Virus record (IMG/VR): IMGVR_UViG_3300050120_000170
Coordinates: 1-64,000 of that record
Direction: 5' to 3' (one strand)
Length of the DNA: 64,000 bases
Source: a virus
The position numbers were made by a program, and so were the translations under genes. Of the stretch, positions 4,856 to 32,013 are shown one piece after another. The stretch's first letter is position 1. Each line of letters opens with the position of its first letter. Under the pieces are notes generated by a model. That model was not told the origin of the DNA. It searched no databases and saw only the letters and a program-made list of their open reading frames with translations.

Positions 4856-4856
4856 T

Positions 4857-10951: not shown

Positions 10952-10958
10952 ATGCGGG

Positions 10959-11626: not shown

Positions 11627-11627
11627 A

Positions 11628-12485: not shown

Positions 12486-12490
12486 AAGTG

Positions 12491-14685: not shown

Positions 14686-14867
14686 CCAGCGTCTCGGTCC
14701 GGGATCGGCACGAGTTCACCTGCGATAGTTGCGAGGCCGTCCGAGTAGTTCACTCGGACGACTTCAACGATGCTTGGGGAATGCTGAAGCAGGACGGATG
14801 GACGATCTTCAAGCACGAGCAACACTGGCACCACGAGTGCCCGAAATGTTCACAGGAGAGCGCGTGA
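14682..14867 (+). CDS. small zinc-ribbon protein
   Basis: CDSC..HHECPKC. GTGA overlap with the upstream gene. Confidence 0.5.
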   Translation: MTSVSVRDRHEFTCDSCEAVRVVHSDDFNDAWGMLKQDGWTIFKHEQHWHHECPKCSQESA

Positions 14868-15373
14868 TGGACGAGAAAGCCTGGAAAGACCCGAGCCCCT
14901 GGGTCCCGATGAAGGAGCCCATCGACCAAAAGCACCTCGGGAAGCTTCTGGAGGAGCTGGGCGAGTGCGTGGAGGCCGCGTCTTGGTTGATGTATAGTCC
15001 CGGGACCCGGGACTACAAGAAGTTGGAGAATGAGATGGCGGATGTCGTCTGCGGAATTGAGTTGGCGCAGGAACATTTCGGCCTGATCAATCTTCGGTTC
15101 GATGCCCGGACGGACGGGGCGTGTCTAGAGCGACTTCTCAGTGCCCTCGGGAACGCGGTCTCTGCGTCCGCCCGCTGCTTCATCCAGGGTATTGACGAAC
15201 ACGAGCCGGTCACAAAGAGACCTAACCGGGATTGGTTACAGGAGGCTTTCCGGGACCTCCTGGGGGTTATTTCGGCGATGGAGATTATAAATCGTCTGGA
15301 CACGGAGCGTATCATGAAGCGCACCGAGTTCAAGAAGAAGCACCTGCGAGCCTGGCACCATATGCTCGCTTAA
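14867..15373 (+). CDS. MazG-like nucleotide pyrophosphohydrolase-fold protein
   Basis: Start at the ATGA overlap. LLEELGECVEA and ENEMADVV are acidic helix pairs typical of all-alpha NTP-PPases. Confidence 0.5.
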   Translation: MDEKAWKDPSPWVPMKEPIDQKHLGKLLEELGECVEAASWLMYSPGTRDYKKLENEMADVVCGIELAQEHFGLINLRFDARTDGACLERLLSALGNAVSASARCFIQGIDEHEPVTKRPNRDWLQEAFRDLLGVISAMEIINRLDTERIMKRTEFKKKHLRAWHHMLA

Positions 15374-18626: not shown

Positions 18627-18827
18627 ATGATGATGTTACCCACCAACGAGATTAAACCCAAGGTGGACCTCATAATCGGGACATACCTCAAGGGCGTGAA
18701 GACCCGTCCCGAGGATCAAGCCGTTATCGAAGCGGCAACGGCGCTGGTTACTTCCACCCTGGAGGCCTTCCATGATTTGGTCTACTACATCCAGGAGATT
18801 GAAGGTATTGAGAGGCGACGCCGATGA
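18627..18827 (+). CDS. hypothetical protein
   Basis: 66-aa ORF with a GGGAGA SD, coupled to the neighbouring genes. Confidence 0.45.
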   Translation: MMMLPTNEIKPKVDLIIGTYLKGVKTRPEDQAVIEAATALVTSTLEAFHDLVYYIQEIEGIERRRR

Positions 18828-19726
18828 AAAACCCGATGTGCGTGGAGGGCACTCCTCTGGAGCATTACCCAGAGCTAGGGCTCTGGGTAAAGCGCGAAGA
18901 TTTGTGCTGCCCGCCCGGTCCTCATTTCTCCAAGACCCGGGGCGTGTACGCGCACATCAAGAACCGCCCCGAGGCGGTGATTGGGTGCCTCGATACGTCG
19001 CACTCGCAGGGCGGTTGGGCGACGGCGCAAGCGTGTAAGCTCCTCGGCAAAAAGGCCGTGGTCTTCTACCCCGAGACCGTGAAGATGAGGCGGGACGGAT
19101 ACGAGTTCCAGGAGCAACAACTGCGTCCCCGGGCGCTTGGAGCCTCGCTGGCTCCGCTTCAGGCCGGACGTTCCGCCGTCCTATATCACGCGGCCAAGAA
19201 GAAGCTACGCAAAATCGTCCCCAGCCGGGCCTCGGTCTACATGATGCCCAACGCCCTCAAACTCCCAGAGATGATTGACGAGACCGTGGCCGAGGTCCTC
19301 CGGACGCCCCTCCCCCCGGTTGACCTCGTCATCGTGTCCGCGTCCTCGGGGACGATAGCGGCGGGAGTAATCTCCGGCTTAACCCGGCTCGGCTACACCG
19401 GGGGGATCGTCGTCCACCAGGGGTACAGCCGCCCGGCCCACACCATTCGGAACTATATGGCCACGATGGTGGCTGAGTATTCCAACCGGCTCCTAGTCGC
19501 TCAGAAGCATCCGCATCAGCGCGGGGACGTGGATATTCAGCTCTGGCGGGAGGACTTTACGCTCGTGGACGAGGGTTACAGTTATGGGGACTCAGCTCCG
19601 GCGATCCGGGAGGATCAGGTCCCGTTCCCGTCCAACAAGTTCTATGACCGGAAGGCCCTCTGGTGGTGGTTGGATCAGGGCCGGAAGGTCCACAAGGGCG
19701 AGGTTCTCCTCTGGAACATCGGGTGA
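18824..19726 (+). CDS. PLP-dependent enzyme, tryptophan-synthase-beta/ACC-deaminase-like fold
   Basis: LWVKREDL..FSKTRG (putative PLP lysine) and the SASSGTIAAGV glycine-rich phosphate loop. Confidence 0.65.
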   Translation: MKNPMCVEGTPLEHYPELGLWVKREDLCCPPGPHFSKTRGVYAHIKNRPEAVIGCLDTSHSQGGWATAQACKLLGKKAVVFYPETVKMRRDGYEFQEQQLRPRALGASLAPLQAGRSAVLYHAAKKKLRKIVPSRASVYMMPNALKLPEMIDETVAEVLRTPLPPVDLVIVSASSGTIAAGVISGLTRLGYTGGIVVHQGYSRPAHTIRNYMATMVAEYSNRLLVAQKHPHQRGDVDIQLWREDFTLVDEGYSYGDSAPAIREDQVPFPSNKFYDRKALWWWLDQGRKVHKGEVLLWNIG

Positions 19727-19730: not shown

Positions 19731-19829
19731 ATGTCGTTAGAGGTCCTGGCCTGGATAGGTCTGTTTGGTTTGATTAACCCTCGGTTCGGGTTCTTCGTTC
19801 TTATGGTGTACGCCGCTCGTCATGCTTGA
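19731..19829 (+). CDS. 32-aa hydrophobic peptide (speculative)
   Basis: MSLEVLAWIGLFGLINPRFGFFVLMVYAARHA fills the gap between the PLP gene and the HNH gene. Confidence 0.25.
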   Translation: MSLEVLAWIGLFGLINPRFGFFVLMVYAARHA

Positions 19830-20223
19830 GGAGCCGCCCACCGCCGAGGAGCTGGCCCGGTTCTACAGTTTCGTGGAGAGGCTACCGAATGGCTGTCACT
19901 TCTGGGCGGGAGCGCGATCCCGGGGCAAGGGGAACACCAAGTGGTACGGGTCATTCCGGTATCGCGGGAAGGTTATACGGGCTCATCGCTTTGCTCACGA
20001 TTACATTGGTGGGAAGTCTTGTCCACCTGGGTATCATCGGGACCACACTTGCGTGTTTAGTCTTTGCGTTAATCCGGAGCACCTGGAGGCGATTACCCGA
20101 GAGGAAAACGAGCGGCGGAAACGGGAGCGGGCATTGGCGGCGGCGGTAATCAAGATCACCTTAACGGTGACGAACGTAGTCAAGAAGGTGACACAGCACG
20201 CGGTAGCGGTGCCGGGCTTGTAA
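19822..20223 (+). CDS. free-standing HNH endonuclease (homing-type)
   Basis: CHFWAGARSRGKGNTKWYGSFRYRGKVIRAHRFAH..YHRDHTCVFSLCVNPEHLEAITREEN, the classic phage HNH_3 pattern. Confidence 0.8.
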   Translation: MLEEPPTAEELARFYSFVERLPNGCHFWAGARSRGKGNTKWYGSFRYRGKVIRAHRFAHDYIGGKSCPPGYHRDHTCVFSLCVNPEHLEAITREENERRKRERALAAAVIKITLTVTNVVKKVTQHAVAVPGL

Positions 20224-20520: not shown

Positions 20521-20933
20521 AACGGTTCGACAACATATCAACCGAGGACCTTACCCAACAGGAGCACGACCTGCGGACGGAGGCTTGTCTCATGAAGTTG
20601 GAGGTTCAGAGGCGAATGCTGGCCGATTGCCCCGCGAAGTGCGGTTGGGTCTACCCGATTATTGACGGGCGTTTTAAGGGCCGGTATATAATGGTGTCCC
20701 AAGTTATCGTGGAGTACAAGGATCGCTGGGAGACACAGGGAAAGACGAAGAAGCCCTGCGGGTTCGTCTGTACTATCCACGGGGTCCTGAGGGGGACCTC
20801 TACGAGGAGAGACGGCTTTAACATCAATCACATCGTCCTCTGGAACAGCACTTTAGACTACACGAAGGGAGTCAAGGGACCCCGAGACTATAACCAATAT
20901 CACCATACATCCGGGAACGAGGACGACGAATAA
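20517..20933 (+). CDS. hypothetical protein
   Basis: 138-aa ORF. Visibly lower GC than its neighbours. Confidence 0.5.
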   Translation: MKRFDNISTEDLTQQEHDLRTEACLMKLEVQRRMLADCPAKCGWVYPIIDGRFKGRYIMVSQVIVEYKDRWETQGKTKKPCGFVCTIHGVLRGTSTRRDGFNINHIVLWNSTLDYTKGVKGPRDYNQYHHTSGNEDDE

Positions 20934-22309
20934 TGGATCACGCAGCCTGGTTACGAGACGGCCTCGATGGAGCCGACGAAGAACTGAAGAAATCGTACCA
21001 ATACTTCATGCGGGTAGACCCGGATCAGCGGGACTTCCTCGGACCTATCGTTAAGATTGACGATCCGGTAACGGGACGCCAGATGCGAACCCGAGTTGGG
21101 AAGGTGGGTATGGTTCGGGGTGCCAAACCCGAGAACATGAAGGACGTCACGATCTATATGGACCCGCTGCCGCACGTCCGTATCGAGAAGGGCAAGGACC
21201 TCCAGGGCTGGTATCAGGGCAAGCAGCTCTCGGCTCCGGGATCGCGGGAGCGGCCCTGTATGACAGACGCGATCCTCACCGAGCCCTACGGCGGCTTTTG
21301 CACTGTGGGCTGCTCGTTCTGCTATATCAACTCCGGGTTCCGGGGCTATCGTGGCTCCGGCTTGATTACTGTCCCGATTGGCTATGGTGCGCACGTCCGG
21401 AAGCAGTTAGCCTCAATGCGAACCTCGGCGGCGGGATACTTCTCCAGCTTCACCGATCCGTTCCTCCCGTTGGAGGACTACTATCACAACACCGAGGAGG
21501 GCGTCCGTGCTTTTACAGATAACGGATTACCAGTCTTTTTCCTCAGCAGACTGGCGTACCCCGACTGGGCAATTGATGCCTTGCGGGCCAATCCGTATAG
21601 TTACGCCCAGAAGTCCATTAACACTCCGGACCCGGACGATTGGAAAAAACTTTCTCCTGGTGCCCTTCCACTCATGGACCATCTCGATGAGATCAGGGCA
21701 CTGCGGGCAGCTGGGATTTACGTCAGCATACAAGTCAACCCCATCATCCCCGGGATCGTAACTCACGACGACGTGGAGAAGCTTTTCGGGATGCTCGCCG
21801 AGGCCGGAGCCAACCACGTCATTGTAAAGTTCGTGGAAGCTAACCACCCCTGGGCCGGGGCGATGGTAGAACGGATCAACAAGCGGTTCGGCGACAACCG
21901 AGGCGCGGCCTTCCGGGACCTGTTCACCGAGAATAGCTGCGGAGGCCAGAAGACGGTCACCGAGGAGTATCGCCGGGAGGGCCACACCCGCTATATGAAG
22001 CGGGCGACCGAGCTGGGTATGACCTATTCGCTGTGCTACGAGTACACGAAGAAGTCTGGTGAATGGCACTCTATGGGGCCGGAGTTCATCACCTCGGACC
22101 AGTGCCACGGCCACCGGGTCCCGATGCATACGAGGAGTGGCCCGGGGCAGCCGTTCCGTCCACTCGGAGAATGCCCACCCTCGGGATGCCTGTCATGCTC
22201 GGACGGCAACCGGGGTGTGCCTCGTTGCGGCTCTGCCCTCCTCGGGGAGGCTAAGGCACTGAGGATCGCAGACCTGAGAAAAGACCCATTCAAGGAGGTA
22301 GACGCATGA
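20933..22309 (+). CDS. radical SAM enzyme (SplB/DNA-photolyase-like architecture)
   Basis: GGFCTVGCSFCYINSGFRGY carries the CxxxCxxC cluster motif. 458 aa with a Cys-rich C-terminus. Confidence 0.8.
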   Translation: MDHAAWLRDGLDGADEELKKSYQYFMRVDPDQRDFLGPIVKIDDPVTGRQMRTRVGKVGMVRGAKPENMKDVTIYMDPLPHVRIEKGKDLQGWYQGKQLSAPGSRERPCMTDAILTEPYGGFCTVGCSFCYINSGFRGYRGSGLITVPIGYGAHVRKQLASMRTSAAGYFSSFTDPFLPLEDYYHNTEEGVRAFTDNGLPVFFLSRLAYPDWAIDALRANPYSYAQKSINTPDPDDWKKLSPGALPLMDHLDEIRALRAAGIYVSIQVNPIIPGIVTHDDVEKLFGMLAEAGANHVIVKFVEANHPWAGAMVERINKRFGDNRGAAFRDLFTENSCGGQKTVTEEYRREGHTRYMKRATELGMTYSLCYEYTKKSGEWHSMGPEFITSDQCHGHRVPMHTRSGPGQPFRPLGECPPSGCLSCSDGNRGVPRCGSALLGEAKALRIADLRKDPFKEVDA

Positions 22310-22896
22310 AAATTGATCTTGATGAAGTACGCTACGGGAGCCGCTACGGTAAAGCTCCAATTCCCCGGGTTCACGGCAACGGCTTTATCCAGCTGGATAT
22401 CGGAGCCGGGCGGCGGCTCCACGTTTGGGGGCACCGGGACCTACCGAGACAGAAAGTGGATACCGGCATTCACGACCACATGTTTGACTTTATATCCACT
22501 TGTATCGCAGGGCGGGTCGTCAACGCCCACTACAAGGTTGTCGGCAGGGAACCTACTCACACGGTCTACGGTCCCGAGCCCCGGGACGGCGAGGACACGG
22601 CGCTGAGACCTTTAGACTTGGGGGGACTAACTCCGGGTAAACTCATTGATTGTCGCCCCTACGTCTACCACATGCGCCTCGTCCCCTCGGGCGAGAGCTA
22701 CAGCTTTGAGCACCGAGAGTTCCACGAGACGTTTACGGATCGCCCCTCGGCGACGATCATGCAGAAAGGTGCGAAGTATCCGGGGCGAGCCCGGGTCCTC
22801 GTCCCTATCGGCTTTGAGCCGGATAACAAGTTCAACCGGAACGATTTTCCGCCCGAGCGGCTCTGGGAGATTATCCACGAGGTTCTCCGCTACTAA
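22306..22896 (+). CDS. hypothetical His-rich protein (possible cupin-like metalloenzyme)
   Basis: HVWGH..GIHDHMFDF..FEHREFHETF His clusters. ATGA-coupled to the radical SAM gene. Confidence 0.4.
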   Translation: MKIDLDEVRYGSRYGKAPIPRVHGNGFIQLDIGAGRRLHVWGHRDLPRQKVDTGIHDHMFDFISTCIAGRVVNAHYKVVGREPTHTVYGPEPRDGEDTALRPLDLGGLTPGKLIDCRPYVYHMRLVPSGESYSFEHREFHETFTDRPSATIMQKGAKYPGRARVLVPIGFEPDNKFNRNDFPPERLWEIIHEVLRY

Positions 22897-22901
22897 CCCC
22901 G

Positions 22902-22931
22902 CTTTACTTCGTCTCTGGAGGCGTGCATGAT
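22902..22931 (+). promoter_or_regulatory. CTTTACTTCGTCTC-type promoter (TTTACT-N17-CATGAT)
   Basis: Exact 14-mer 6 nt after the stop at 22896. Same -10-like hexamer as at 17218. Confidence 0.45.
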
Positions 22932-23082
22932 CGTCCTAGAAAGAATGACCATTGAGACAAATGACGCTCACCTGGCTAACTTCTTCACGGGGTTAGAGAA
23001 GGGAAAGCGGCTCGCATTTCTAGGACGAGAATGGGCTCTGGAGAGCTACGGTGGGGGCAACGAGGGTGGGCGGTTCAAGGCT

Positions 23083-23154
23083 ATTATTAGGTTAAACGGC
23101 GCACCAAGGGAAACATGGATTATTAGGTTAAACGGCGCACCGAGGGAAACATGG
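23083..23154 (+). repeat. tandem 36-bp duplication spanning the ribosome-binding site and start codon
   Basis: ATTATTAGGTTAAACGGCGCACC(A/G)AGGGAAACATGG twice, with 1 mismatch. The second copy supplies the ATG at 23151. Confidence 0.9.
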
Positions 23155-23990
23155 CAGCAGACAGTACTAAGATCGGGGTCCGAGAGTTCGGCGACCTCCT
23201 CATTAAGACCCAGGACCTGGATCCAACGTATGTGGGCCTCCATGGTGCGGGTCTGGAAGTGGCTCAGCTCTCCCGCTGGCTCCTAGCTTACTGGTGTTTT
23301 TACCACGTGGGCCTCGCCTCCTGGCTCTCCGAACATACCAACAAGGACTATTGGCGCTGGATGGGGGAGGCGGCGGCTAATATAGCCCGGCCCCCGAATG
23401 CCCGTTACGAGCGTTGGCCCCGGGCTCCGGAACGCCGCCACTTCCGAGGTCAGAAGTGCGTGGACGCCGTTGACTGGCTCTCCAAGAAGGAGCCGGAGCA
23501 TTGGGTGGGAATGTTCCTTGACGCCCCGAACCGGGTCCGGAATGCAGGAGCCTGGACGGATAAGCAGGTTATGAAAAAGGTCCAAGATTGGCCGTTGTTC
23601 GGTCCCTGGATCGCGTTCAAGGTCGCCGATATGCTGGAGCGTTGCGCGGGCGTCCCGGTAAAGTTTGACCCCAACATCGCACTGATGTACGACGAGCCCC
23701 GGGCCGGGCTCGGGCTCTGCCAGCTCCACTCTCCGCCGGAGTACGCCCACCTGTCCCAGACGGATTGGTACAACGCCCTGTCTTTGTACTTCCGGGCGAG
23801 GCTGGCCCCCCCGGCTCGGGATCGGACTTGCGGCCCTCAGGAGGTGGAGACGGTCCTCTGTAAGTGGAAGTCCTATATGGGTGGACATTACCACCTCGGA
23901 AAGGATATCACCGATCACCGCAACGCCCTAGACGGTTGGGGGATTACGGCGGATCGGATCAAGAAGGCAATGCCGGAGGAGGTGAAATGA
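23151..23990 (+). CDS. aGPT-pyrophosphorylase-like or glycosylase-fold hypermodification protein (paralog 2, tentative)
   Basis: 279 aa. WLLAYWCFYHVGLASW..ERRHFRGQK..GPWIAFKVADMLER. Call rests on gene context and recalled family features only. Confidence 0.4.
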   Translation: MAADSTKIGVREFGDLLIKTQDLDPTYVGLHGAGLEVAQLSRWLLAYWCFYHVGLASWLSEHTNKDYWRWMGEAAANIARPPNARYERWPRAPERRHFRGQKCVDAVDWLSKKEPEHWVGMFLDAPNRVRNAGAWTDKQVMKKVQDWPLFGPWIAFKVADMLERCAGVPVKFDPNIALMYDEPRAGLGLCQLHSPPEYAHLSQTDWYNALSLYFRARLAPPARDRTCGPQEVETVLCKWKSYMGGHYHLGKDITDHRNALDGWGITADRIKKAMPEEVK

Positions 23991-24589
23991 TTGCTATCAA
24001 TATCAGGGGAACCGGGGGGAGCGGGAAGTCCACACTGGTCCGCAAGTTGATCGACCTCTACCCGAACCACGCGAATATTCTGGAGGAGAAGCGCAAGCGG
24101 GCGATGGCGACGTGCCACTGGTTCGGAGATAAGCTTAAAGACAGTCCGGCGGTTCGGCCTCCCGGCCTGTTTGTCCCGGGGCACTACGAGACGGATTGCG
24201 GCGGCTGCGACACGGTCAAGACCGTGGATAAGGTCTATGATCTGGTGCGGGCGTCCGCCCTCTGGGACGGCAACAACGTCCTCTACGAGGGGATCATGGT
24301 TATGGACGACGTGACCCGGGCCGTTGCCTTTGACCAGGATTTGAAGAAGGCCGGAGGCCGCCTGGTCGTAGTCAGCTTGACTACGACCATTGACGAATGT
24401 CTCGCAGGCATCCGGCAGAGGCGAGGCGCAGAGAAGGAGGCGGCCAAGCCCCTCAACGAGAAGAACACCCGGGACCGGATGAAGCGGCAGGAGAACAGTC
24501 TCCATCGCCTCAAGCAGGCCGGGGTGGAGCTGCGCAAGTTGTCGCGGGAGGACGCTTTCCTCCAGATCAGGGAATTGTTGGGGGTCTAG
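23987..24589 (+). CDS. P-loop kinase (5-hydroxymethyluracil DNA kinase-like)
   Basis: Start at the ATGA overlap. MIAINIRGTGGSGKSTLVRKL Walker A, about 200 aa, next to the pyrophosphorylase-like gene. Confidence 0.6.
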   Translation: MIAINIRGTGGSGKSTLVRKLIDLYPNHANILEEKRKRAMATCHWFGDKLKDSPAVRPPGLFVPGHYETDCGGCDTVKTVDKVYDLVRASALWDGNNVLYEGIMVMDDVTRAVAFDQDLKKAGGRLVVVSLTTTIDECLAGIRQRRGAEKEAAKPLNEKNTRDRMKRQENSLHRLKQAGVELRKLSREDAFLQIRELLGV

Positions 24590-25053
24590 TGAAGCCAGTT
24601 ATCGTGGGGATGAATAACCCTCTCTCGGGACGTTCGGAGCATGCGCTGTACCCGTTCCCGGAAGGGTGTACCGGACACCGGCTCTGGGTGCTTCTGAATA
24701 AGCGAACGGGGGCCTCCCAGGAGGATTACCTGGAGGCATTCGAGCGGCGGAACCTGCTTAACGAGCGGGTCTGGAATTTGAACAAGGCCCGGGACGCGGC
24801 CTCAAAGCTTATCCTGGAGATGAGGGGGCGCACCGTCCTCGTCCTCGGGGCGGAGGTCCGGACGGTTCTCAAACTGCCGGTGATGCTCGTACACCCGCAG
24901 GAATTGTGGGGCGTGACCTGGAGGCAACTCCCACATCCTTCGGGTCGTAACCCCTGGTACATGAAGGCGGGCAACCGGGAGGTCGCGGAGCTGCTCCTAG
25001 AGGAGCTGTTCCGGCTTCCACAACTAGGCCCAAGGGAGCCGATGATGCTATGA
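24589..25053 (+). CDS. uracil-DNA-glycosylase superfamily protein, SMUG-like motifs
   Basis: The GTG overlaps the TAG. VIVGMNNPLSG versus SMUG motif GMNPGP, and LPHPSGRNPWY versus HPSPRNP. Confidence 0.5.
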   Translation: MKPVIVGMNNPLSGRSEHALYPFPEGCTGHRLWVLLNKRTGASQEDYLEAFERRNLLNERVWNLNKARDAASKLILEMRGRTVLVLGAEVRTVLKLPVMLVHPQELWGVTWRQLPHPSGRNPWYMKAGNREVAELLLEELFRLPQLGPREPMML

Positions 25054-25502
25054 CGGTCCTCAGCGCACAGACGATCCTCCGGCTGGGGATCGTAATCCCC
25101 TGCCACGAGGCCTGGAAGGACGAGCACGGCAATTCCGCCGGGCTCTCGGGGTGTGGCTACGACATCACGCTGGAGAAGGAGATAGCCCTCCATCCGGGGT
25201 GCCACCTGCTCTGTGCCGCGCAGCAACAGTTTTCTCTCCCGAACAACGTCATGGGCGTCGTCCACGACAAGTCCTCGCTCGCCCGGCGGGGCCTCGCCGT
25301 CCAAAACACGGTCCTGGAACCGGGCTGGCGAGGCTTCCTGACCCTGGAGGTCACGAACCACGGCCACTCTTATATGCGCCTCGCCGAGGGAGCCGCCATT
25401 GCCCAGGTGGTGTTTCACTTCCTGGACGAGCCCACCCTCCTCCCCTACGCGGGAAAGTATCAGGACCAGGAACCCGGTCCCCAGAAGGCAAGGAGCAAGT
25501 AG
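25050..25502 (+). CDS. dcd: dCTP deaminase/dUTPase-fold enzyme
   Basis: GYDITL..DKSSLARRGLAVQNTVLEPGWRGFLTLEVTNHG, a typical Dcd/Dut beta-barrel signature. Confidence 0.8.
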   Translation: MTVLSAQTILRLGIVIPCHEAWKDEHGNSAGLSGCGYDITLEKEIALHPGCHLLCAAQQQFSLPNNVMGVVHDKSSLARRGLAVQNTVLEPGWRGFLTLEVTNHGHSYMRLAEGAAIAQVVFHFLDEPTLLPYAGKYQDQEPGPQKARSK

Positions 25503-25503
25503 A

Positions 25504-26694
25504 ATGCACGTCATACACGCCCGGAACGTCAGCGCGGCCCTCCCTCAGGGGTTGGCCTTCCTATCCAGCTGCGGTATTTGGGAGGAAACCCGAGCCGGGC
25601 GAGCCCTCGTCTCCCCCGTCCCCGTCGTCACAGCCTACACCAAGCCCCGGGAGCGGGTCCTACTTTCCCCGATCCGGGACGCCAATCCGTTCTTTCATCT
25701 CGCCGAGGCGCTGTGGATGCTCCAGGGTCGGGCTGATAGCAAGTTCCTGGACAACTTCATTCGCGACTTCGGCAGCCGGTTCGCGGAGCCGGGGGGAGAC
25801 GTTCATGGGGCCTACGGACGGCGCTGGCGGGGTCACTTTCAACAGAGCCAGAAGGGCTTCAGTGGGACCTGGGGGCTCAGGGTTCTAGACCAGCTGGCGT
25901 CCGTCGCTCGGGAGCTGAAGGACAACCCGGGCTCCCGCCAGGTCGTCCTCACGATGTGGGACCCGGGAGCGGACCTCGGGATTGCTGGCCTGAAGGACCG
26001 GCCCTGTAACACCCATATATACTTCCGGCTCCGGGATGAGGCCTACCAGAACCCACCTGTAACGGACCAGAACTCAGCGGAGCATGAGGCCCGGATTGCG
26101 CGCGGGGAGCATATGGTTCTGGATATGACCGTCCTCTGCCGTTCCAACGACATCGTGATGGGGGCCTACGGCGCGAACGCCGTCCACTTCTCCGTCCTTC
26201 AGGAATACCTAGCCTCCAAGATCGGCGTGCGGGTGGGGACTTACTATCAGGTCTCGAACAACTTCCACGCCTACGAGCGGGACCTCAACTTGCTCGCCAA
26301 GCGGAACCATGACAGCGGGTCTCATTACGCGGTGGAGGACGAGCTGAAGGACCTCTCTTATGAGGAGCGGCGGGTGAGCCCCCACCGGCTCGTGGATAAC
26401 CCGGCGACTTTCGATGGTGAGCTGCTTTGGCTGATGGATGCCTACGAGGCGGTGTTGGGGCAGGACACGGCTGACGAGAGTATCCACTCTCACGCCGAGG
26501 ACCTCGGCAACGGGTTCCTCGCCCATACGGTCTGGCCCATGCTGATGGCGCATCGGTTCTACCGGCGGGAGCAATACGACCCGGCTTTCCAGTGGGCGGA
26601 TCGGATTGAGGCTAAGGATTGGGGACGGGCCTCCGTGGAGTGGCTCCGCCGCCGCGAATTCATGTCCCAACATAAGAAGGAGAAGTTAGCTTGA
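25504..26694 (+). CDS. thymidylate-synthase-family pyrimidine hydroxymethylase (divergent ThyA homolog)
   Basis: AEALWMLQGRADSKFL, HGAYGRRWR, NPGSRQVVLTMWDP, DRPCNTHIYF (catalytic Cys), CRSNDIVMGAYGANAVHF. 396 aa with insertions. Confidence 0.8.
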   Translation: MHVIHARNVSAALPQGLAFLSSCGIWEETRAGRALVSPVPVVTAYTKPRERVLLSPIRDANPFFHLAEALWMLQGRADSKFLDNFIRDFGSRFAEPGGDVHGAYGRRWRGHFQQSQKGFSGTWGLRVLDQLASVARELKDNPGSRQVVLTMWDPGADLGIAGLKDRPCNTHIYFRLRDEAYQNPPVTDQNSAEHEARIARGEHMVLDMTVLCRSNDIVMGAYGANAVHFSVLQEYLASKIGVRVGTYYQVSNNFHAYERDLNLLAKRNHDSGSHYAVEDELKDLSYEERRVSPHRLVDNPATFDGELLWLMDAYEAVLGQDTADESIHSHAEDLGNGFLAHTVWPMLMAHRFYRREQYDPAFQWADRIEAKDWGRASVEWLRRREFMSQHKKEKLA

Positions 26695-27245
26695 GACGAG
26701 AACAAATCATGGCGTCCCGGCAGCTCGCCGGGCGCGTAGAGCGGTGGCACACCTGGCCAATGATCCGGCGGCCTACCGTGATGGAACACGCCGGGCGGGT
26801 TGCTTCGCTGTTCTGCGAGCTGTGGGGTATCCCCCGGGGCGAGGTCCTGTATTATTGCCTCCACCACGACCACGGTGAGTTTACGGCGGGCGATGTGCCG
26901 TTCAGCGCCAAGGAGCTGGCTCCCAACCTTCGGGAGAGCATGAACTTTGCCGAGGCTATCGGGCGGGATCGGCTCGGGATTATCCTGCCGGAGATCAACC
27001 AGGAGGAGTTCCTCCGGTTCAAGATTTGCGACCTCCTGGAGATGTTCGAGACGGCCATCGTGGAGTGGAATATGGGGAACCGCTACGCGGGTTGCGTGGT
27101 GGTGGACTGCGCTAATACGGCCCTGGATATGGCGCACAAGGTAGACCTCCTGGTGAGTGGAAACCGGACGGCCTGCCGTGACTATATCGAGGGCTGGGTG
27201 TACAAGAACGGCTACAAGGGAGCAGCAACCTATGACGTCTTCTAA
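26691..27245 (+). CDS. HD-domain 5'-deoxynucleotidase (YfbR-like)
   Basis: RWHTWPMIRRPTVMEHAGRVA..YCLHHDHGEFTAGDVP. TTG start with an AAGGAG SD. Confidence 0.65.
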   Translation: MRREQIMASRQLAGRVERWHTWPMIRRPTVMEHAGRVASLFCELWGIPRGEVLYYCLHHDHGEFTAGDVPFSAKELAPNLRESMNFAEAIGRDRLGIILPEINQEEFLRFKICDLLEMFETAIVEWNMGNRYAGCVVVDCANTALDMAHKVDLLVSGNRTACRDYIEGWVYKNGYKGAATYDVF

Positions 27246-28326
27246 CATGGAACATATGAAGCACATCGACGCGGTGGTGGACAGCGACACCGCCGTGCTC
27301 CGCCAGAAGGAGAGCACCTATCAGGGCTCGTGGAAGGCCGCCGGGGGCCGTTCGGCCTGGTTCATGTTCCGGCGCAACATGGACCGGCTCCTCTCGATGA
27401 TGAAGAAGCCTCCAGAGGTGGACGGCTTCTCGATGGTGGACCTGGACGATTGTATCCAGCAGGCCTGGTCCGAGGCGGACAAGGCCTCCGGCGACTGTAC
27501 CATGGACGTTAGCATCGTCCAGTACCTCCGGGACAGCTACGTCTCCGAAAATATCTTCGCCAAGATACGGGAAAACCCATTGGGGCAGGACGGTACCGTG
27601 CTGGCTTGTCTCCGGGACCTCCGCCGCTACGCGATCCTCATCGAGGCGGAGATGGTGGGCCGGGGCGTCTTGACGCCCGAGGAGCGCGGGGGGGAGTGGG
27701 ACCGGGAGAGCAAGGAACAGCTCCTGGCTCCCGAGAAGGAACGTAAAATCCTGGAGCGGGCTCTCGGGTTCGGAGAAGGCAGCCTGGACCTATACACTTT
27801 CTGCGCTCAACTTATGGGGGTTGATCGCCAGGTGGCCAAGGAGGAGATTATCAAGCTACTCTACGGAGGGCCAAACCCGGAAACCAAGGTAGAACACATT
27901 GAGGTCAAGGTCATAGCCTCGCCCGAGAATGGCTCCCAGCATGCCAGCCTCGTTCCCTGGGCCGTTTCTACCAGCTGGCAGTACAAGCAGGGATACAACG
28001 CTAACTCTACCACACGCTCTATGTTTGATCGTTGGTGGCACCAGCAAGCTCCCGGGGTTTACGTTATGGAGACCGCCGTCCTGGTGAATGATTCCTTGGT
28101 ACCCGAAGAAATCGGCCACCTCTACATCCGCTCAGGAAACTTCTGGGTGGCCCTGATCGAGCGGTGCCCACCCGACGCCCGCGACTGGTTCCCCCGGTTA
28201 CGACGGGAGGTTAACTCCAAGGAACATGACGAGCTGCCGGCCTGGCAGAATAGCATGTACGCTTGGAACCAGAGCGGGAACAAGTGGGTTATCGAGCGGC
28301 AACACGAGGCCTGGGCACGCGACTGA
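27232..28326 (+). CDS. protein with MazG/DUF1599-like N-terminal domain and unknown C-terminal domain
   Basis: KESTYQGSWKAAGGRSAWFMFRRNMDRL..LRDLRRYAILIEAEM resembles phage all-alpha NTP-PPase-like domains. Confidence 0.4.
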   Translation: MTSSNMEHMKHIDAVVDSDTAVLRQKESTYQGSWKAAGGRSAWFMFRRNMDRLLSMMKKPPEVDGFSMVDLDDCIQQAWSEADKASGDCTMDVSIVQYLRDSYVSENIFAKIRENPLGQDGTVLACLRDLRRYAILIEAEMVGRGVLTPEERGGEWDRESKEQLLAPEKERKILERALGFGEGSLDLYTFCAQLMGVDRQVAKEEIIKLLYGGPNPETKVEHIEVKVIASPENGSQHASLVPWAVSTSWQYKQGYNANSTTRSMFDRWWHQQAPGVYVMETAVLVNDSLVPEEIGHLYIRSGNFWVALIERCPPDARDWFPRLRREVNSKEHDELPAWQNSMYAWNQSGNKWVIERQHEAWARD

Positions 28327-30332
28327 TGGCCAAGCCGCGTAACCCGCACATTGGCGGGCAACAGGAGCCGTTGTTCCTCCCGGATAGCTCGTGGGTTGCT
28401 CCTACAAGCCTCCCTGATCTAAGGCGACATAAGAGGGTCGCCTTAGATACGGAGGAACGAGACGACGGCCTGGCTGCCTCCCGTGGTCCGGGCTGGGCCA
28501 TTAAGGCCGGGTACATCTCGGGGTACTCCATGGCCTGGGACGGGGGAGCGATGTACGCCCCGGTCCGCGATCCGGACACGGCGAACCTGGACCCCGAGAC
28601 CGTGGTCCGCTGGATTGAGGATCATCGCAAGGCGGGCGTCCAGTTTATATTCCAGAATAGCAATTACGATATCGGGTGGATGACCACCGAGGGTATTGAC
28701 GTCCGGGCCTGGACCAATATCGAGGATACGATGAACCGGGCCGTCTTAATCGACGAGACCCAGTACACCTACAACCTAGACGACCTCTGTAAGCGCCGAG
28801 GGATACCCGGGAAGGACGAGGCCTCGCTCCTGGAAGTGGGGGCCGCGTTCGGGTACCACACCCGGAAGGAGATCAAGTCAAACCTCTGGCGGTTCCCGGC
28901 CCGGCATAAGGCCCAGTACGCGATTGCGGACGCTGTATCCACTCTCGCCCTGTTCGATGTTCAGCAGGCCGATATTGACGACCAGGAGCTGGGGGACGCC
29001 TACCGGCTGGAGATGGACATTGTCCCGATGGTCGTGGAGATGCGCCGCCGGGGCGTGAAGGTCAACGTAGAGCGAGCGGAGCGGGAGCGGGAATACTGTC
29101 TCGGGGAGCGTGACCGGGTATTCGAGGAACTCCGCCAGAAGACCGGCGAACGGATGGGCATGGAGGAGATTGGAAAGAATACCTTCCTCCAGAGGCTGTT
29201 CCAGGTTCACGCCCCGCAGATAGAGATACCTCGGACGGCCCCCTCAGCCAAGCACCCGGGCGGACAGCCCTCGTTCACCGCCGGGTCTACCGGCTGGATG
29301 CCGAAGGTGAAGCACTGGCTTCCTCAGCTCCTCATCCAGGCAGACAAGTACAATAACGCAGCGGAGAAGTTCCTCAAGGGCTACATCATCGACTTTGCGC
29401 ACCGGGGCCGTCTCCACGCCTCGATTAACCAGCTGCTCGGGGAGGACGACTCAGGGGCTATTAAGGGCACCCGGACGTTCCGCTTTTCATACAGTGAGCC
29501 ACCGCTCCAGCAGATGACGGCGCGTGACGAGGACCTCGCTCCGCGCATCCGGGGTGTGTTCGAGCCCGAGGAGGGGGAGAGCTGGCTCAGCGCGGACTAT
29601 TCTCAGCAGGAATACCGGCTCATTGTTCACTTCGCGTGTCTCCTGGAATGTACCAAGGCGGAGGTCGCGGCCCAGCGTTACATAGACGACCCGAAGACGG
29701 ATTATCACTCCATGGTTGCGGACCTGACCGGCCTGGAGCGCAAGCCCGCGAAGGATACCAACTTTGCGAAGTCCTACGGGGCCGGGATACCGAAGTTTGC
29801 GGCGATGATCAACAAATCCGTGGAGGAAGCCCGGGCGATCATGAAGCAGTACGACACCCAGATGCCCTTCGTCAAGGAGCTGAACGAGATTTGCCAGAAG
29901 CTGGCGGATGAGCGAGGCTACATCCGCCTGCTGGACGGAGCCCGGTCTCATTTCCCGAGGTGGGAGTTGGCCTGGCGACCGAAGGGTGAGCCGCCGGTAT
30001 CGGTGGACAGCCTAGAGAAGGCCCGGGCACTCTGGCCCGGGAAGCGGATCAAGCGAGCCGACACGAAGGACGCCATGAACCGGCTGATTCAGGGATCGGC
30101 AGCCCGGCAGACCAAGGAGGCTATGCGGGCCTGCTGGCGGGAGGGCTACGTCCCGTTGCTTCAGCTTCATGATGAACTCGACTTCTCGATTGCGAAGAAG
30201 AAGGACGGCGACAACATCGTGGTGATCATGCGCGATATCCGGCGGCTCAAGGTCCCGATGCTGGTAGACGCGGAATACGGGCGGACCTGGGGCACCGCGA
30301 AGCACGAGTGGAAAGAGAGGATGGTGGCATGA
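28326..30332 (+). CDS. family A DNA polymerase with 3'-5' exonuclease domain
   Basis: ALDTEE (ExoI), DYSQQEYRL (motif A), KDTNFAKSYGAG (motif B), LLQLHDELDF (motif C). ATGA start overlap. Confidence 0.9.
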   Translation: MAKPRNPHIGGQQEPLFLPDSSWVAPTSLPDLRRHKRVALDTEERDDGLAASRGPGWAIKAGYISGYSMAWDGGAMYAPVRDPDTANLDPETVVRWIEDHRKAGVQFIFQNSNYDIGWMTTEGIDVRAWTNIEDTMNRAVLIDETQYTYNLDDLCKRRGIPGKDEASLLEVGAAFGYHTRKEIKSNLWRFPARHKAQYAIADAVSTLALFDVQQADIDDQELGDAYRLEMDIVPMVVEMRRRGVKVNVERAEREREYCLGERDRVFEELRQKTGERMGMEEIGKNTFLQRLFQVHAPQIEIPRTAPSAKHPGGQPSFTAGSTGWMPKVKHWLPQLLIQADKYNNAAEKFLKGYIIDFAHRGRLHASINQLLGEDDSGAIKGTRTFRFSYSEPPLQQMTARDEDLAPRIRGVFEPEEGESWLSADYSQQEYRLIVHFACLLECTKAEVAAQRYIDDPKTDYHSMVADLTGLERKPAKDTNFAKSYGAGIPKFAAMINKSVEEARAIMKQYDTQMPFVKELNEICQKLADERGYIRLLDGARSHFPRWELAWRPKGEPPVSVDSLEKARALWPGKRIKRADTKDAMNRLIQGSAARQTKEAMRACWREGYVPLLQLHDELDFSIAKKKDGDNIVVIMRDIRRLKVPMLVDAEYGRTWGTAKHEWKERMVA

Positions 30333-30583: not shown

Positions 30584-30598
30584 GTGACCAAGGAGGAC

Positions 30599-31523: not shown

Positions 31524-31534
31524 GGGAGAAGTCA

Positions 31535-31992: not shown

Positions 31993-32013
31993 ATGAGAGG
32001 GTGCTGTTAAGAA
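31985..32013 (+). promoter_or_regulatory. sigma70-like promoter TTGACT-N17-TAAGAA
   Basis: AAATAGTTCTTGACT 15-mer, identical to 35920-35934. Followed by a CCTCAGGAGGG leader. Confidence 0.5.

What the first reader, a model, noticed from the sequence alone, without database searches (positions are those of the whole stretch)
25050..28326. Nucleotide-pool rewiring block fused to the polymerase operon: dCTP deaminase, divergent ThyA-family enzyme, HD nucleotidase, MazG-like protein
**Seen in sequence:** four start/stop-coupled genes sit directly upstream of the family A polymerase.
- A Dcd/Dut-fold enzyme.
- A 396-aa ThyA homolog that keeps the catalytic Cys context (DRPCNTHIYF) but has large insertions.
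- A YfbR-like HD 5'-deoxynucleotidase.
- A MazG/DUF1599-like protein.

**Established knowledge:** phages that replace dT with 5-hmdU or derivatives (SPO1-type, PhiW-14, ViI, M6) pair a dUMP hydroxymethylase with enzymes that supply dUMP and destroy dTMP/dTTP.

**Inference:** this phage synthesises 5-hmdUTP and excludes thymidine.
Basis: partly seen in the sequence, partly recalled or inferred. Interest (0 to 1): 0.75.

Follow-up and report, generated by a model that had tools for sequence, protein, structure and literature searches.

The report
Phage thymidine hypermodification gene cluster
This block is the nucleotide-supply half of a known type of phage pathway (as in Pseudomonas phage M6) that builds DNA with 5-hydroxymethyluracil and then converts part of it into a bulky modified thymine, so it is a new example of a known system rather than a new one.

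Summary
The four genes exist as described and are tightly coupled to the family A polymerase gene. Three annotations hold.
- **dCTP deaminase:** it passes the curated family threshold and keeps its catalytic residues.
- **ThyA homolog (396 aa):** it has the derived characters of phage dUMP hydroxymethylases, not of thymidylate synthase.
- **HD enzyme:** it is YfbR-like and keeps the catalytic residues.

The fourth gene could not be shown to be MazG- or DUF1599-like. An ORF with MazG motifs lies 10 kb upstream instead.

Directly upstream (17.7-24.6 kb) lie homologs of every enzyme of the phage M6 5-(2-aminoethyl)uridine (5-NedU) pathway:
- a 5-hmdU DNA kinase;
- an amino acid:DNA transferase;
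- a radical SAM isomerase, 62% identical to its counterpart in the M6-like phage LKO4;
- a PLP-dependent decarboxylase.

The most likely mechanism runs dCTP to dU nucleotides to 5-hmdUMP to 5-hmdUTP, which is incorporated into DNA. After replication, part of the 5-hmdU is converted to a 5-NedU-type base. By analogy with M6, the rest becomes thymine.

The reading "5-hmdU DNA that excludes thymidine" is therefore only partly right. This is a new metagenomic member of a known kind. Its one clear variation is a dCTP deaminase in place of the usual dCMP deaminase.

The parts
25050..25502 (+). Compact dCTP deaminase (Dcd/Dut fold, 150 aa). Proposed supplier of dU nucleotides from dCTP.
   Evidence: PF22769 at 68.9 bits, TIGR02274 at 95.1 bits (cutoff 92.8), phrog_1663 at 2e-39. 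It keeps S75, R79 and E100, which correspond to E. coli Dcd S111, R115 and catalytic E138. The short PDB chain 8y1w has Met at the E138 position.
25504..26694 (+). ThyA-superfamily enzyme (396 aa), predicted dUMP hydroxymethylase: dUMP + methylene-THF + water gives 5-hmdUMP.
   Evidence: PF00303 at 71.3 bits, but every NCBIfam ThyA equivalog is far below its cutoff. BLASTP bits: 221-230 to the LKO4 and PhiJL001 homologs, 119-122 to SPO1-like gp29 and SP10 dUMP hydroxymethylase, 55-69 to phage and E. coli ThyA, 26 to T4 gp42. It keeps C146 and N177; H147 is Asn and W80 is lost, as in all dUMP hydroxymethylase lineages compared.
26709..27245 (+). HD-domain phosphohydrolase, YfbR-like 5'-deoxynucleotidase. 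Proposed dTMP or dT-nucleotide clearing enzyme. An alternative TTG start lies at 26691.
   Evidence: PF12917 at 29.5 bits (cutoff 25.9), phrog_6047. The YfbR alignment keeps H33, H68, D69, E72 and D77. The same position after the ThyA homolog is occupied by an HD gene in LKO4, Pam3 and contigs L013 and L014.
27232..28326 (+). Conserved two-domain protein of unknown function (364 aa). It has an N-terminal helical domain (about residues 6-151) and a C-terminal alpha/beta domain (about 240-364).
   Evidence: 143 metagenomic homologs, none with a Pfam domain. AlphaFold2 pLDDT is 86 for the full protein and 93 for the N-domain. No significant Foldseek match. The N-domain is homologous to Pam3 gp54, annotated 'nucleotide modification' (hhalign 99.5%, E 4e-22), which sits in the same slot between the HD gene and PolA.
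28326..30332 (+). Family A DNA polymerase with a 3'-5' exonuclease domain. Presumed to incorporate 5-hmdUTP.
   Evidence: PF00476 at 118.9 bits; PF01612 at 20.8 bits, below its 23.6 cutoff. 31-32% identical to LKO4 gp24 and PhiJL001 gp28.
23987..24589 (+). P-loop kinase, candidate 5-hmdU DNA kinase (counterpart of M6 gp54).
   Evidence: Walker A motif GTGGSGKST. 25% identical to LKO4 gp16 at E 2.5e-8. PF18748 HMUDK_HMUD1 scores only 18.8 bits, below its cutoff. It hits phrog_800, a family labelled 'terminase small subunit', the same label LKO4 gp16 carries in GenBank.
23151..23990 (+). Amino acid:DNA transferase (aGPT-Pplase clade 2, counterpart of M6 gp51).
   Evidence: PF18724 ADDT at 63.1 bits. 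38% identical to LKO4 gp12 over the full length, with the conserved QEVETVLCKWKS Glu/Cys segment. PMC8989533 reports an essential Cys and a neighbouring Glu in this family.
20933..22309 (+). Radical SAM enzyme, counterpart of the M6 gp53 glycinyl-thymine isomerase.
   Evidence: 62% identical over 460 aa to LKO4 gp15. phrog_9252 at 1.5e-204. Its CTVGCSFC cluster motif matches the M6 gp53 motif CTVGCAFC quoted in PMC8989533, and a C-terminal Cys-rich segment is conserved.
18824..19726 (+). PLP-dependent enzyme, counterpart of the M6 gp52 decarboxylase.
   Evidence: PF00291 at 53.5 bits. 45% identical to LKO4 gp13. The FSKTRGV lysine is conserved where M6 gp52 K36 is predicted (PMC8989533).
17714..18616 (+). 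aGPT-Pplase clade 1 / HMUDK_hel protein (counterpart of LKO4 gp17). Its role is unknown.
   Evidence: PF18723 at 145 bits. 36% identical to LKO4 gp17.
24589..25053 (+). UDG-superfamily-like protein (154 aa, GTG start) lying between the kinase and Dcd.
   Evidence: phrog_12275 at 1e-22. 30% identical to LKO4 gp09, annotated uracil-DNA glycosylase. No Pfam hit. Gene call taken from L003.
19822..20223 (+). HNH endonuclease inside the cluster, as in LKO4 (gp14).
   Evidence: PF13392 at 25.8 bits. 31% identical to LKO4 gp14.
22306..22896 (+). 196-aa protein of unknown function between the radical SAM and transferase genes. Probably not specific to the pathway.
   Evidence: phrog_4784. Homologs occur in 298 phage records, almost all 64-67 kb Pseudomonas phages. 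Absent from the LKO4 cluster.
14729..15373 (+). ORF carrying MazG-type motifs (EELGE and ENEMADVV). Its start codon is uncertain.
   Evidence: The C-terminal part hits phrog_4856 'nucleoside triphosphate pyrophosphohydrolase' at 2.3e-10. The motifs are read from the translation. No Pfam hit.

Best explanation
The block is the pre-replicative half of an M6-type thymidine hypermodification system, carried by a metagenomic tailed phage related to Mesyanzhinovviridae-like phages. Gene identities rest on homology, residues and synteny shown here. All enzymatic steps are inferred.

**Before replication**
1. Dcd deaminates dCTP to dUTP, or directly to dUMP if it is bifunctional.
2. dUTP is cleaved to dUMP by the host Dut or by a phage pyrophosphatase.
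3. The ThyA homolog adds the methylene of methylene-THF to dUMP. It lets water rather than hydride resolve the exocyclic methylene intermediate, which gives 5-hmdUMP.
4. The HD 5'-deoxynucleotidase removes competing dT nucleotides.
5. Host kinases make 5-hmdUTP.
6. The adjacent family A polymerase incorporates it in place of dTTP.

**After replication**
1. The upstream P-loop kinase phosphorylates 5-hmdU in DNA.
2. The amino acid:DNA transferase adds an amino acid, glycine if it behaves like M6 gp51.
3. The radical SAM enzyme isomerises the N-linked glycine to a C-linked one.
4. The PLP enzyme decarboxylates it to 5-(2-aminoethyl)uridine (5-NedU).
5. By analogy with M6, the remaining 5-hmdU ends up as thymine by an unknown route.
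For: **The ThyA homolog groups with dUMP hydroxymethylases.**
- Full-length matches of 37-39% identity to the LKO4 (Yuavirus, the genus of M6) and PhiJL001 homologs.
- Next come SPO1-like gp29 and SP10 'dUMP hydroxymethylase' at 119-122 bits. Phage and E. coli ThyA score 55-69 bits and T4 gp42 scores 26.
- All seven NCBIfam ThyA equivalogs are far below cutoff, for example 54 against 327 bits.
- The best PDB sequence match is the CMP hydroxymethylase MilA, not a thymidylate synthase.

**Residues.**
- The catalytic Cys and the uracil-specifying Asn177 are kept. PMC8670742 describes the Asn/Asp switch that sets dUMP versus dCMP preference.
- H147 is Asn and W80 is absent. The same holds in 117-119 of the 119 nearest homologs and in all six dUMP hydroxymethylase lineage proteins compared.
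- The thymidylate synthase C-terminal tail is replaced by a helical extension.

**Context.**
- Homologs of LKO4 gp12, gp13, gp15, gp16 and gp17 lie at 17.7-24.6 kb. By order and family they correspond to M6 gp51, gp52, gp53, gp54 and gp55. The radical SAM enzyme is 62% identical, the PLP enzyme 45% and the transferase 38%, and their motifs are conserved.
- The activities of M6 gp51-54 act on 5-hmdU-containing DNA (PMC8989533).

**Synteny.**
- The order ThyA-like, HD, small protein(s), PolA is shared with LKO4, PhiJL001, Pam3 and Rhizobium phage RHph_I72.
- Dcd, ThyA-like, HD, ~400-aa protein, PolA is shared with contigs L013 and L014.

**Other enzymes.** Dcd and the HD enzyme keep their catalytic residues. 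tblastn found no dCMP deaminase, TMP kinase, ribonucleotide reductase or trimeric dUTPase homolog in the window. No dihydrofolate reductase appeared among the roughly 45 ORFs scanned.
Against: - No biochemistry exists for this protein. The papers read here describe the M6 dUMP hydroxymethylase only as part of the general pathway, not as an assayed enzyme.
- My neighbour-joining tree does not resolve the deep nodes. Bootstrap support is 56% or less, and the dUMP hydroxymethylase lineages do not form one supported clade.
- The kinase is only 25% identical to LKO4 gp16 and falls below the Pfam HMUDK threshold.
- The transferase is only 38% identical to LKO4 gp12, so the amino acid it uses could differ.
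- Whether W80 loss and Asn147 cause hydroxymethylation rests on my own reading of the thymidylate synthase literature.
- Nothing found here phosphorylates 5-hmdUMP.
- Dcd plus a ThyA enzyme is also the ordinary bacterial route to dTMP.
Confidence: 0.75

Rival explanations
1. An M6-type pathway with a different end product. The pre-replicative part works as described, but the transferase uses another amino acid, or extra genes change the chemistry, so the final base is not 5-NedU.
For: - The transferase is only 38% identical to LKO4 gp12.
- Related transferases use serine (ViI) or glycine (M6, PaMx11), and the downstream enzymes vary combinatorially (PMC8989533).
- Related contig L013 keeps the same Dcd, ThyA-like, HD, ~400-aa protein, PolA block but carries a different module with a radical SAM-SPASM enzyme.
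- The window has an extra 196-aa gene inside the cluster.
Against: - The radical SAM enzyme (62%) and the PLP enzyme (45%) are clear counterparts of the M6-type pair, which acts specifically on glycinyl-thymine (PMC8989533).
- The 196-aa protein is common in Pseudomonas phage records that show no link to this pathway.
Confidence: 0.2
2. One reading: an SPO1-type phage whose mature DNA carries 5-hmdU in place of all thymine, with no further modification.
For: - The block contains a dU-nucleotide supplier, a hydroxymethylase-like ThyA homolog and a nucleotidase.
- SPO1-like gp29 and SP10 dUMP hydroxymethylase are clear homologs.
Against: - A complete set of 5-hmdU-consuming DNA-modifying enzymes lies directly upstream in the same orientation.
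- In all studied phages with these genes the virion DNA has no 5-hmdU (PMC8989533).
Confidence: 0.07
3. An ordinary dTMP-supply operon. Dcd makes dUTP, a dUTPase makes dUMP, and the ThyA homolog is a divergent but true thymidylate synthase that boosts dTTP for replication.
For: - Dcd followed by ThyA is the standard route to dTMP in many bacteria (established knowledge).
- Pfam places the protein in Thymidylat_synt, and most database records name its relatives 'thymidylate synthase'.
Against: - It fails all ThyA equivalog thresholds.
- It lacks W80 and the thymidylate synthase C-terminal tail.
- It scores two to four times higher against dUMP hydroxymethylase lineages than against thymidylate synthases.
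- No dihydrofolate reductase was found.
- A deoxynucleotidase gene follows it.
- The neighbouring kinase and transferase need 5-hmdU in DNA.
Confidence: 0.06
4. A dCMP hydroxymethylase, as in T4 gp42, that makes 5-hydroxymethylcytosine DNA.
For: It belongs to the same superfamily. The best PDB sequence match is a CMP hydroxymethylase, MilA.
Against: - The pyrimidine-specifying residue is Asn, not Asp, in this protein and in all 119 nearest homologs (PMC8670742).
- It scores only 26 bits against T4 gp42.
- A dCTP deaminase next door would destroy the precursor.
- No dCTPase or 5-hmC glucosyltransferase lies in the cluster.
Confidence: 0.02

Closest known systems
Pseudomonas phage M6 / Yuavirus 5-NedU pathway (compared here through phage LKO4, same genus; Lee et al. 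2018 PMC5889632 and 2021 PMC8989533)
   Same: - It carries the same enzyme set: ThyA-like hydroxymethylase, HD phosphohydrolase, PolA, P-loop kinase, clade 1 and clade 2 aGPT-Pplases, a radical SAM enzyme, a PLP enzyme, and even an HNH gene between the PLP and radical SAM genes.
- The local order ThyA-like, HD, small protein(s), PolA is the same.
   Different: - Identities range from 25% to 62%.
[quoted passage not shown]
- A dCTP deaminase upstream of the ThyA homolog replaces the dCMP deaminase found downstream of PolA.
- No Nmad5 or DUF3310 gene is present.
- There is an extra 196-aa gene.
- A 364-aa two-domain protein occupies the slot between HD and PolA.
Pseudanabaena cyanophage Pam3 and Rhizobium phages RHph_I72 / RHph_I65 (cultured phages with the same cluster type)
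   Same: - Both carry the radical SAM, aGPT-Pplase, P-loop NTPase, ThyA-like and PolA genes in the same layout; Pam3 also has an annotated 5'-deoxynucleotidase.
- Pam3 gp54 is homologous to the N-terminal domain of the window's 364-aa protein.
- The Rhizobium phage radical SAM gene is the only part of the 12-kb stretch 20000-32000 with a nucleotide-level match to a cultured phage (72.8%).
   Different: - RHph_I72 has a dCMP deaminase and Pam3 has Nmad5; the window has neither.
- Pam3 gp54 lacks the C-terminal domain.
- No modification data for these phages were found in the papers searched.
SPO1 gp29-type and SP10 dUMP hydroxymethylases (Bacillus hmU and hypermodifying phages)
   Same: - 32% identity over the catalytic core.
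- A shared PCN motif, Asn177, loss of W80, and a helical C-terminal extension.
   Different: - These are different phage families.
- In the SPO1-like phage Goe9 a HAD-like protein, not an HD enzyme, lies next to the hydroxymethylase gene.
- SPO1-type hmU phages keep 5-hmdU as the final base (PMC8989533).
Canonical thymidylate synthase ThyA (E. coli) and T4 dCMP hydroxymethylase gp42
   Same: The fold and the core catalytic residues are shared: Cys146, Glu58, Tyr94, Arg166, Ser167, Asp169, His207 and Tyr209.
   Different: - Against ThyA: W80 is missing, H147 is Asn, the C-terminal tail is absent, and scores are far below the family cutoffs.
- Against gp42: the window protein has Asn where gp42 has Asp179 (PMC8670742), and the match is only 26 bits.

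Membership tests
dUMP hydroxymethylase (ThyA superfamily; SPO1 gp29 / SP10 / M6 type) | ThyA fold with the catalytic cysteine | tested here: met
   PF00303 at 71.3 bits. The Cys in DRPCN aligns with E. coli C146.
dUMP hydroxymethylase (ThyA superfamily; SPO1 gp29 / SP10 / M6 type) | Uracil-specifying Asn at the E. coli N177 position (Asp in dCMP-specific enzymes) | tested here: met
   Asn in the window protein and in 119 of 119 nearest homologs. The rule comes from PMC8670742.
dUMP hydroxymethylase (ThyA superfamily; SPO1 gp29 / SP10 / M6 type) | Closer to known dUMP hydroxymethylase lineages than to thymidylate synthases or dCMP hydroxymethylase, and sharing their derived characters | tested here: met
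   Bit scores: 221-230 (M6-like lineage), 119-122 (SPO1-like, SP10), 92 (ViI-like), 55-69 (ThyA) and 26 (T4 gp42). It shares the PCN motif, the loss of W80 and the C-terminal extension. The neighbour-joining tree itself is unresolved at depth.
dUMP hydroxymethylase (ThyA superfamily; SPO1 gp29 / SP10 / M6 type) | Produces 5-hmdUMP and THF from dUMP and methylene-THF | not testable with these tools
   This needs an enzyme assay.
Canonical thymidylate synthase (ThyA) | Reaches the curated equivalog score | tested here: not met
   Seven NCBIfam ThyA models hit, all far below cutoff: 61.6 against 174.6, 54.1 against 327, 38.4 against 108.4 bits, and so on.
Canonical thymidylate synthase (ThyA) | Cofactor-shielding Trp80 and a C-terminal tail that closes the active site | tested here: not met
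   W80 aligns with Gly. The E. coli C-terminus has no counterpart. The functional meaning of both features rests on my own knowledge.
M6-type 5-NedU hypermodification pathway | 5-hmdU DNA kinase (P-loop, M6 gp54 type) | tested here: inconclusive
   It is 25% identical to LKO4 gp16 at E 2.5e-8, has a Walker A motif and sits beside the transferase gene. PF18748 scores only 18.8 bits against a cutoff of 27.
M6-type 5-NedU hypermodification pathway | Clade 2 aGPT-Pplase / amino acid:DNA transferase with a conserved Cys and Glu | tested here: met
   PF18724 at 63.1 bits. 38% identical to LKO4 gp12, with the conserved EVETVLCKW segment.
M6-type 5-NedU hypermodification pathway | Radical SAM isomerase (M6 gp53 type) and PLP decarboxylase (M6 gp52 type) | tested here: met
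   62% and 45% identical to LKO4 gp15 and gp13. The CTVGCSFC motif and the Schiff-base Lys context are conserved.
M6-type 5-NedU hypermodification pathway | 5-NedU present in virion DNA | not testable with these tools
   This is a metagenomic contig, so no DNA chemistry is available.
dCTP deaminase (Dcd) | Curated family score and the catalytic Ser/Arg/Glu | tested here: met
   TIGR02274 at 95.1 bits against 92.8. S75, R79 and E100 correspond to E. coli S111, R115 and E138. Whether it is mono- or bifunctional cannot be told.
YfbR-like HD 5'-deoxynucleotidase | Family score and the metal/catalytic residues (H, HD, E, D) | tested here: inconclusive
   Pfam PF12917 passes at 29.5 against 25.9 bits, and the residues H33, H68, D69, E72 and D77 align. 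The NCBIfam equivalog scores 18.2 against 122 bits, and the PDB YfbR match has E 0.22. Substrate preference for dTMP was not tested.
MazG / DUF1599 (Nmad1) all-alpha NTP pyrophosphohydrolase, for gene 27232-28326 | Sequence or fold match to the family | tested here: not met
   No Pfam hit in the protein or its 67 homologs. hhalign against a ViI-like NTP pyrophosphohydrolase gives probability 0.3%. Foldseek against the PDB gives nothing below E 0.4. The only hints are matches at E 0.6-1.2 to Nmad1 proteins among predicted viral structures.

The most novel reading that the evidence does not exclude
The conserved 360-400-aa protein that always sits between the HD nucleotidase and the polymerase in this phage clade has no family assignment. 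It combines a Pam3 gp54-like helical domain with an unmatched alpha/beta domain. It could be a missing enzyme of the pathway. Candidates are the 5-hmdUMP kinase or dT-nucleotide pyrophosphatase function that no gene in the window covers, or the still unknown activity that turns leftover 5-hmdU in DNA into thymine.
Probability: 0.15. Interest if true: 0.6.

Novelty: new member of a known kind. Interest (0 to 1): 0.3.

Why it matters
It flags an uncultured phage, seen in at least two independent datasets, whose DNA is predicted to carry a hypermodified thymine. Such DNA resists many restriction enzymes, which matters for virome methods and for enzyme discovery.

The block also shows that the nucleotide-supply module (Dcd, hydroxymethylase, HD, unknown protein, PolA) stays fixed while the post-replicative chemistry module is swapped between relatives. 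This supports the modular gene-pool picture of Lee et al. (PMC8989533).

It points to two cheap targets: a dCTP deaminase used in place of a dCMP deaminase, and a conserved protein of unknown function in the pathway. It does not open a new kind of biology.

Tried and rejected
- **Tree.** A neighbour-joining tree of 21 ThyA-family proteins with 200 bootstraps left the deep nodes unsupported (56% or less). I rely on pairwise scores, shared residues and synteny instead.
- **MazG/DUF1599 for gene 27232-28326.** Nothing significant came from any of the following:
  - Pfam at E up to 1 on the protein, on its N-terminal half and on all 68 family members.
  - PHROGs, NCBIfam and PADLOC.
  - hhalign against a ViI-like NTP pyrophosphohydrolase and against the small LKO4 and PhiJL001 proteins in the same slot.
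  - A profile search of PDB sequences.
  - Foldseek with the full-length and N-domain models.
- **The 196-aa gene in the cluster as an extra modification enzyme.** Rejected as pathway-specific, because its homologs sit in about 290 Pseudomonas phage records of 64-67 kb.
- **Megablast of 12 kb (20000-32000) against phage genomes.** It found only a 780-bp stretch of the radical SAM gene in Rhizobium phages.
- **Promoter and terminator scan of 17-32.5 kb.** Counts were no different from shuffled sequence, so the operon structure rests on gene overlaps only.
- **tblastn for other nucleotide-metabolism genes.** No hits below E 0.1 for dCMP deaminase, TMP kinase, dUTPase, ribonucleotide reductase, Nmad5, DUF3310, T4 gp56 or a HAD nucleotidase.
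- **Comparison of the MazG-motif ORF (14729-15373) with the Pam3 and ViI-like pyrophosphohydrolases.** No similarity.

Full report
**What is in the sequence**

On the + strand there is a run of tightly packed genes. An independent gene call on an identical contig from another dataset, L003, corroborates them.

| Coordinates | Gene |
|---|---|
| 24589-25053 | UDG-like, 154 aa |
| 25050-25502 | Dcd, 150 aa |
| 25504-26694 | ThyA-like, 396 aa |
| 26709-27245 | HD, 178 aa (a TTG at 26691 is an alternative start) |
| 27232-28326 | unknown protein, 364 aa |
| 28326-30332 | family A polymerase, 668 aa |

The junctions are overlaps of 1 to 14 nt or a gap of 1 nt. The 'start/stop-coupled' description is therefore correct. 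A consensus scan found no excess of promoters or terminators inside the run.

The window is 100% identical over 21 kb to a contig from a second sequencing run. Its ThyA-like protein also occurs on a 70.5-kb JGI contig. It is an uncultured phage. A small terminase subunit, a primase and helicases are present.

**The four genes**

*Dcd.* It passes the curated dCTP deaminase model, TIGR02274, at 95.1 bits against a cutoff of 92.8. The dUTPase models fall far below their cutoffs. Aligned to E. coli Dcd it keeps Ser111, Arg115 and the catalytic Glu138, as S75, R79 and E100. The short 155-aa chain 8y1w, the closest solved sequence, has Met at the Glu138 position. The protein is therefore deaminase-competent. 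Whether it also cleaves dUTP cannot be read from the sequence.

*ThyA homolog.* It belongs to Pfam Thymidylat_synt (71 bits) but fails all seven NCBIfam ThyA equivalogs by a wide margin.
- Its full-length relatives among cultured phages are the homologs in PhiJL001 and in the Yuavirus, Ab18 and ZC01 group of Pseudomonas phages, at 36-38% identity. Next come SP10 'dUMP hydroxymethylase', SPO1-like gp29 and the ViI-like phages.
- BLASTP bit scores are 221-230, 119-122 and 92 for these groups. Phage and E. coli thymidylate synthases score 55-69, and T4 dCMP hydroxymethylase scores 26.
- In alignment it keeps Glu58, Tyr94, Cys146, Arg166, Ser167, Asp169, Asn177, His207 and Tyr209.
- It has Asn for His147 and Gly for Trp80. 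It replaces the thymidylate synthase C-terminus with a helical extension that the M6-like, SPO1-like and SP10 enzymes share.
- The 119 nearest metagenomic homologs behave the same way: Asn177 in 119, Asn147 in 117 and Trp80 in none.
- Asn at 177 specifies uracil and Asp specifies cytosine (PMC8670742), so the substrate is dUMP.
- From my own knowledge of thymidylate synthase enzymology, Trp80 and the C-terminal tail shield the methylene intermediate and position the cofactor for hydride transfer. Their loss fits resolution by water. That link is inference.

*HD protein.* It passes Pfam YfbR-like (29.5 bits against 25.9) and aligns with YfbR residues His33, His68, Asp69, Glu72 and Asp77. It is far below the NCBIfam equivalog cutoff. 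An HD gene follows the ThyA homolog in LKO4, Pam3, L013 and L014 as well. A dTMP preference is plausible by analogy with the dTMPase of hmU phages (PMC8989533) but is untested.

*Fourth gene.* It could not be tied to MazG or DUF1599.
- It has 143 metagenomic homologs, none with a Pfam domain.
- It gives confident AlphaFold2 models, with pLDDT 86 for the full protein and 93 for the N-terminal domain.
- It has no significant structural neighbour. Two weak matches among predicted viral structures are to 'Nucleotide modification associated domain 1' proteins.
- Its N-terminal helical domain is clearly homologous to Pam3 gp54 (hhalign 99.5%), which occupies the same slot. Its C-terminal alpha/beta domain matches nothing.
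- A separate ORF at 14729-15373 carries the MazG-type motifs EELGE and ENEMADVV and hits a phage pyrophosphohydrolase family.

Directly upstream, in the same orientation, lie the following genes.

| Coordinates | Gene | Family score | Identity to LKO4 |
|---|---|---|---|
| 17714-18616 | clade 1 aGPT-Pplase / HMUDK_hel | 145 bits | 36% to gp17 |
| 18824-19726 | PLP enzyme | 53.5 bits | 45% to gp13 |
| 19822-20223 | HNH endonuclease | 25.8 bits | 31% to gp14 |
| 20933-22309 | radical SAM enzyme | phrog_9252, 1.5e-204 | 62% to gp15 |
| 23151-23990 | clade 2 amino acid:DNA transferase | 63 bits | 38% to gp12 |
| 23987-24589 | P-loop kinase | below cutoff | 25% to gp16 |

LKO4 is in the same genus as M6. 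By gene order and family, its gp12, gp13, gp15 and gp16 correspond to M6 gp51, gp52, gp53 and gp54.

The signature motifs are conserved:
- CTVGCSFC in the radical SAM enzyme, against CTVGCAFC in M6 gp53;
- the lysine context of the PLP enzyme;
- the Glu and Cys segment of the transferase.

Lee et al. showed how these act in M6 (PMC8989533):
1. gp54 phosphorylates 5-hmdU in DNA.
2. gp51 transfers glycine.
3. gp53 isomerises N-linked glycinyl-thymine to the C-linked form.
4. gp52 decarboxylates it to 5-NedU.

The same paper reports metagenomic contigs with organisation identical or nearly identical to M6. These enzymes need 5-hmdU in DNA, which independently argues that the ThyA homolog next door makes 5-hmdUMP.

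**Comparison with relatives**

The layout ThyA-like, HD, small protein(s), PolA recurs in LKO4, PhiJL001, cyanophage Pam3 and Rhizobium phage RHph_I72. LKO4, PhiJL001 and RHph_I72 carry a dCMP deaminase just after PolA. The window has none and instead has Dcd before the ThyA homolog.

Two metagenomic relatives keep the same Dcd, ThyA-like, HD, ~400-aa protein, PolA block.
- L014 has the same post-replicative genes as the window.
- L013 has a different set that includes a radical SAM-SPASM enzyme.

The supply module is therefore conserved while the chemistry module is exchangeable.

**Mechanism and verdict**

The most likely mechanism is as follows.
1. dCTP is deaminated to dU nucleotides.
2. 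dUMP is hydroxymethylated.
3. dT nucleotides are cleared by the HD enzyme, possibly with help from the MazG-motif protein.
4. 5-hmdUTP is incorporated by PolA.
5. Part of the 5-hmdU is converted in DNA to a 5-NedU-type base.
6. The rest becomes thymine, as in M6, where about 30% of T is replaced (PMC11946847).

The gene identities are shown by homology, residues and synteny. Every catalytic step is inferred.

Its endpoint, 5-hmdU DNA without thymidine, is probably wrong, and its fourth-gene annotation is unsupported. This is a new metagenomic member of a known system, with a modest variation in how dUMP is supplied.

Noticed in passing
window 23083-23154: A 36-bp tandem duplication (2.0 copies, 97% match) contains the ribosome-binding site and ATG of the amino acid:DNA transferase gene. 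The first copy creates a three-codon mini-ORF (ATG GAT TAT TAG) just upstream of the real start. The identical contig from a second dataset has it too.
   Followed up: partly
window 14729-15373 (+): This ORF carries MazG-type motifs (EELGE and ENEMADVV). Its C-terminal part hits phrog_4856, 'nucleoside triphosphate pyrophosphohydrolase'. It is the likelier MazG-like enzyme of this phage, 10 kb upstream of the block. It has no Pfam hit and its start codon is uncertain.
   Followed up: partly
window 24589-25053 (+): A 154-aa protein with UDG-superfamily-like motifs (GMNNPLSG and HPSGRN) lies between the DNA kinase and Dcd. It is 30% identical to LKO4 gp09, annotated uracil-DNA glycosylase, and has no Pfam hit. 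Its role is unclear in a phage that raises dU nucleotide pools and builds 5-hmdU DNA.
   Followed up: partly
L013 5095-9522 (NCBI GCA_900143125.1, contig FRDC01003037.1): A related contig keeps the same Dcd, ThyA-like, HD, ~400-aa protein, PolA block. Its upstream module differs: an HMUDK_hel protein, a 319-aa unknown, a radical SAM-SPASM enzyme, and 184-aa and 152-aa unknowns. No ADDT or PLP hit is on record. It may make a different, uncharacterised thymidine modification.
   Followed up: no
protein P0096 (637 aa): One homolog of the ThyA-like protein carries HNH_3 and intein-splicing Pfam domains. It appears to be an intein-interrupted hydroxymethylase gene.
   Followed up: no
window 23987-24589; LKO4 gp16; Salmonella phage 38 SP38_200: The candidate 5-hmdU DNA kinase falls in phrog_800, labelled 'terminase small subunit'. 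LKO4 gp16, the gene in the M6 gp54 kinase position, and a gene near the ViI-like ThyA homolog carry that name in GenBank. This looks like a propagated misannotation. The window's likely true small terminase is at 45057-45701 (phrog_51).
   Followed up: partly
window 22306-22896 (+): A 196-aa protein (phrog_4784) sits inside the modification cluster. Its homologs are in about 290 Pseudomonas phage records of 64-67 kb and a few Brevundimonas phages.
   Followed up: partly
window 15550-17193 and 32247-33725 (+): Two UvrD-like helicase genes flank the modification and replication region. Contigs L013 and L014 also carry UvrD-like helicase genes in this region.
   Followed up: no
window 10895-14227 (+): Two proteins match Pfam families built on cyanophage Pam3 gp33 and gp34 (DUF7307 and Pam3_Gp34). 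They are followed by a 544-aa protein with an archaeo-eukaryotic primase domain of the TOTE conflict-system type.
   Followed up: no
window 2861-6209 (+) and 8627-10246 (-): A run of genes encodes a peptidoglycan-binding protein, a family 2 glycosyltransferase, a calcineurin-like phosphoesterase and a papain-family protease. A SNF2-type helicase lies on the opposite strand. A phrog_6247 'DNA topoisomerase' family protein is at 37991-38905.
   Followed up: no
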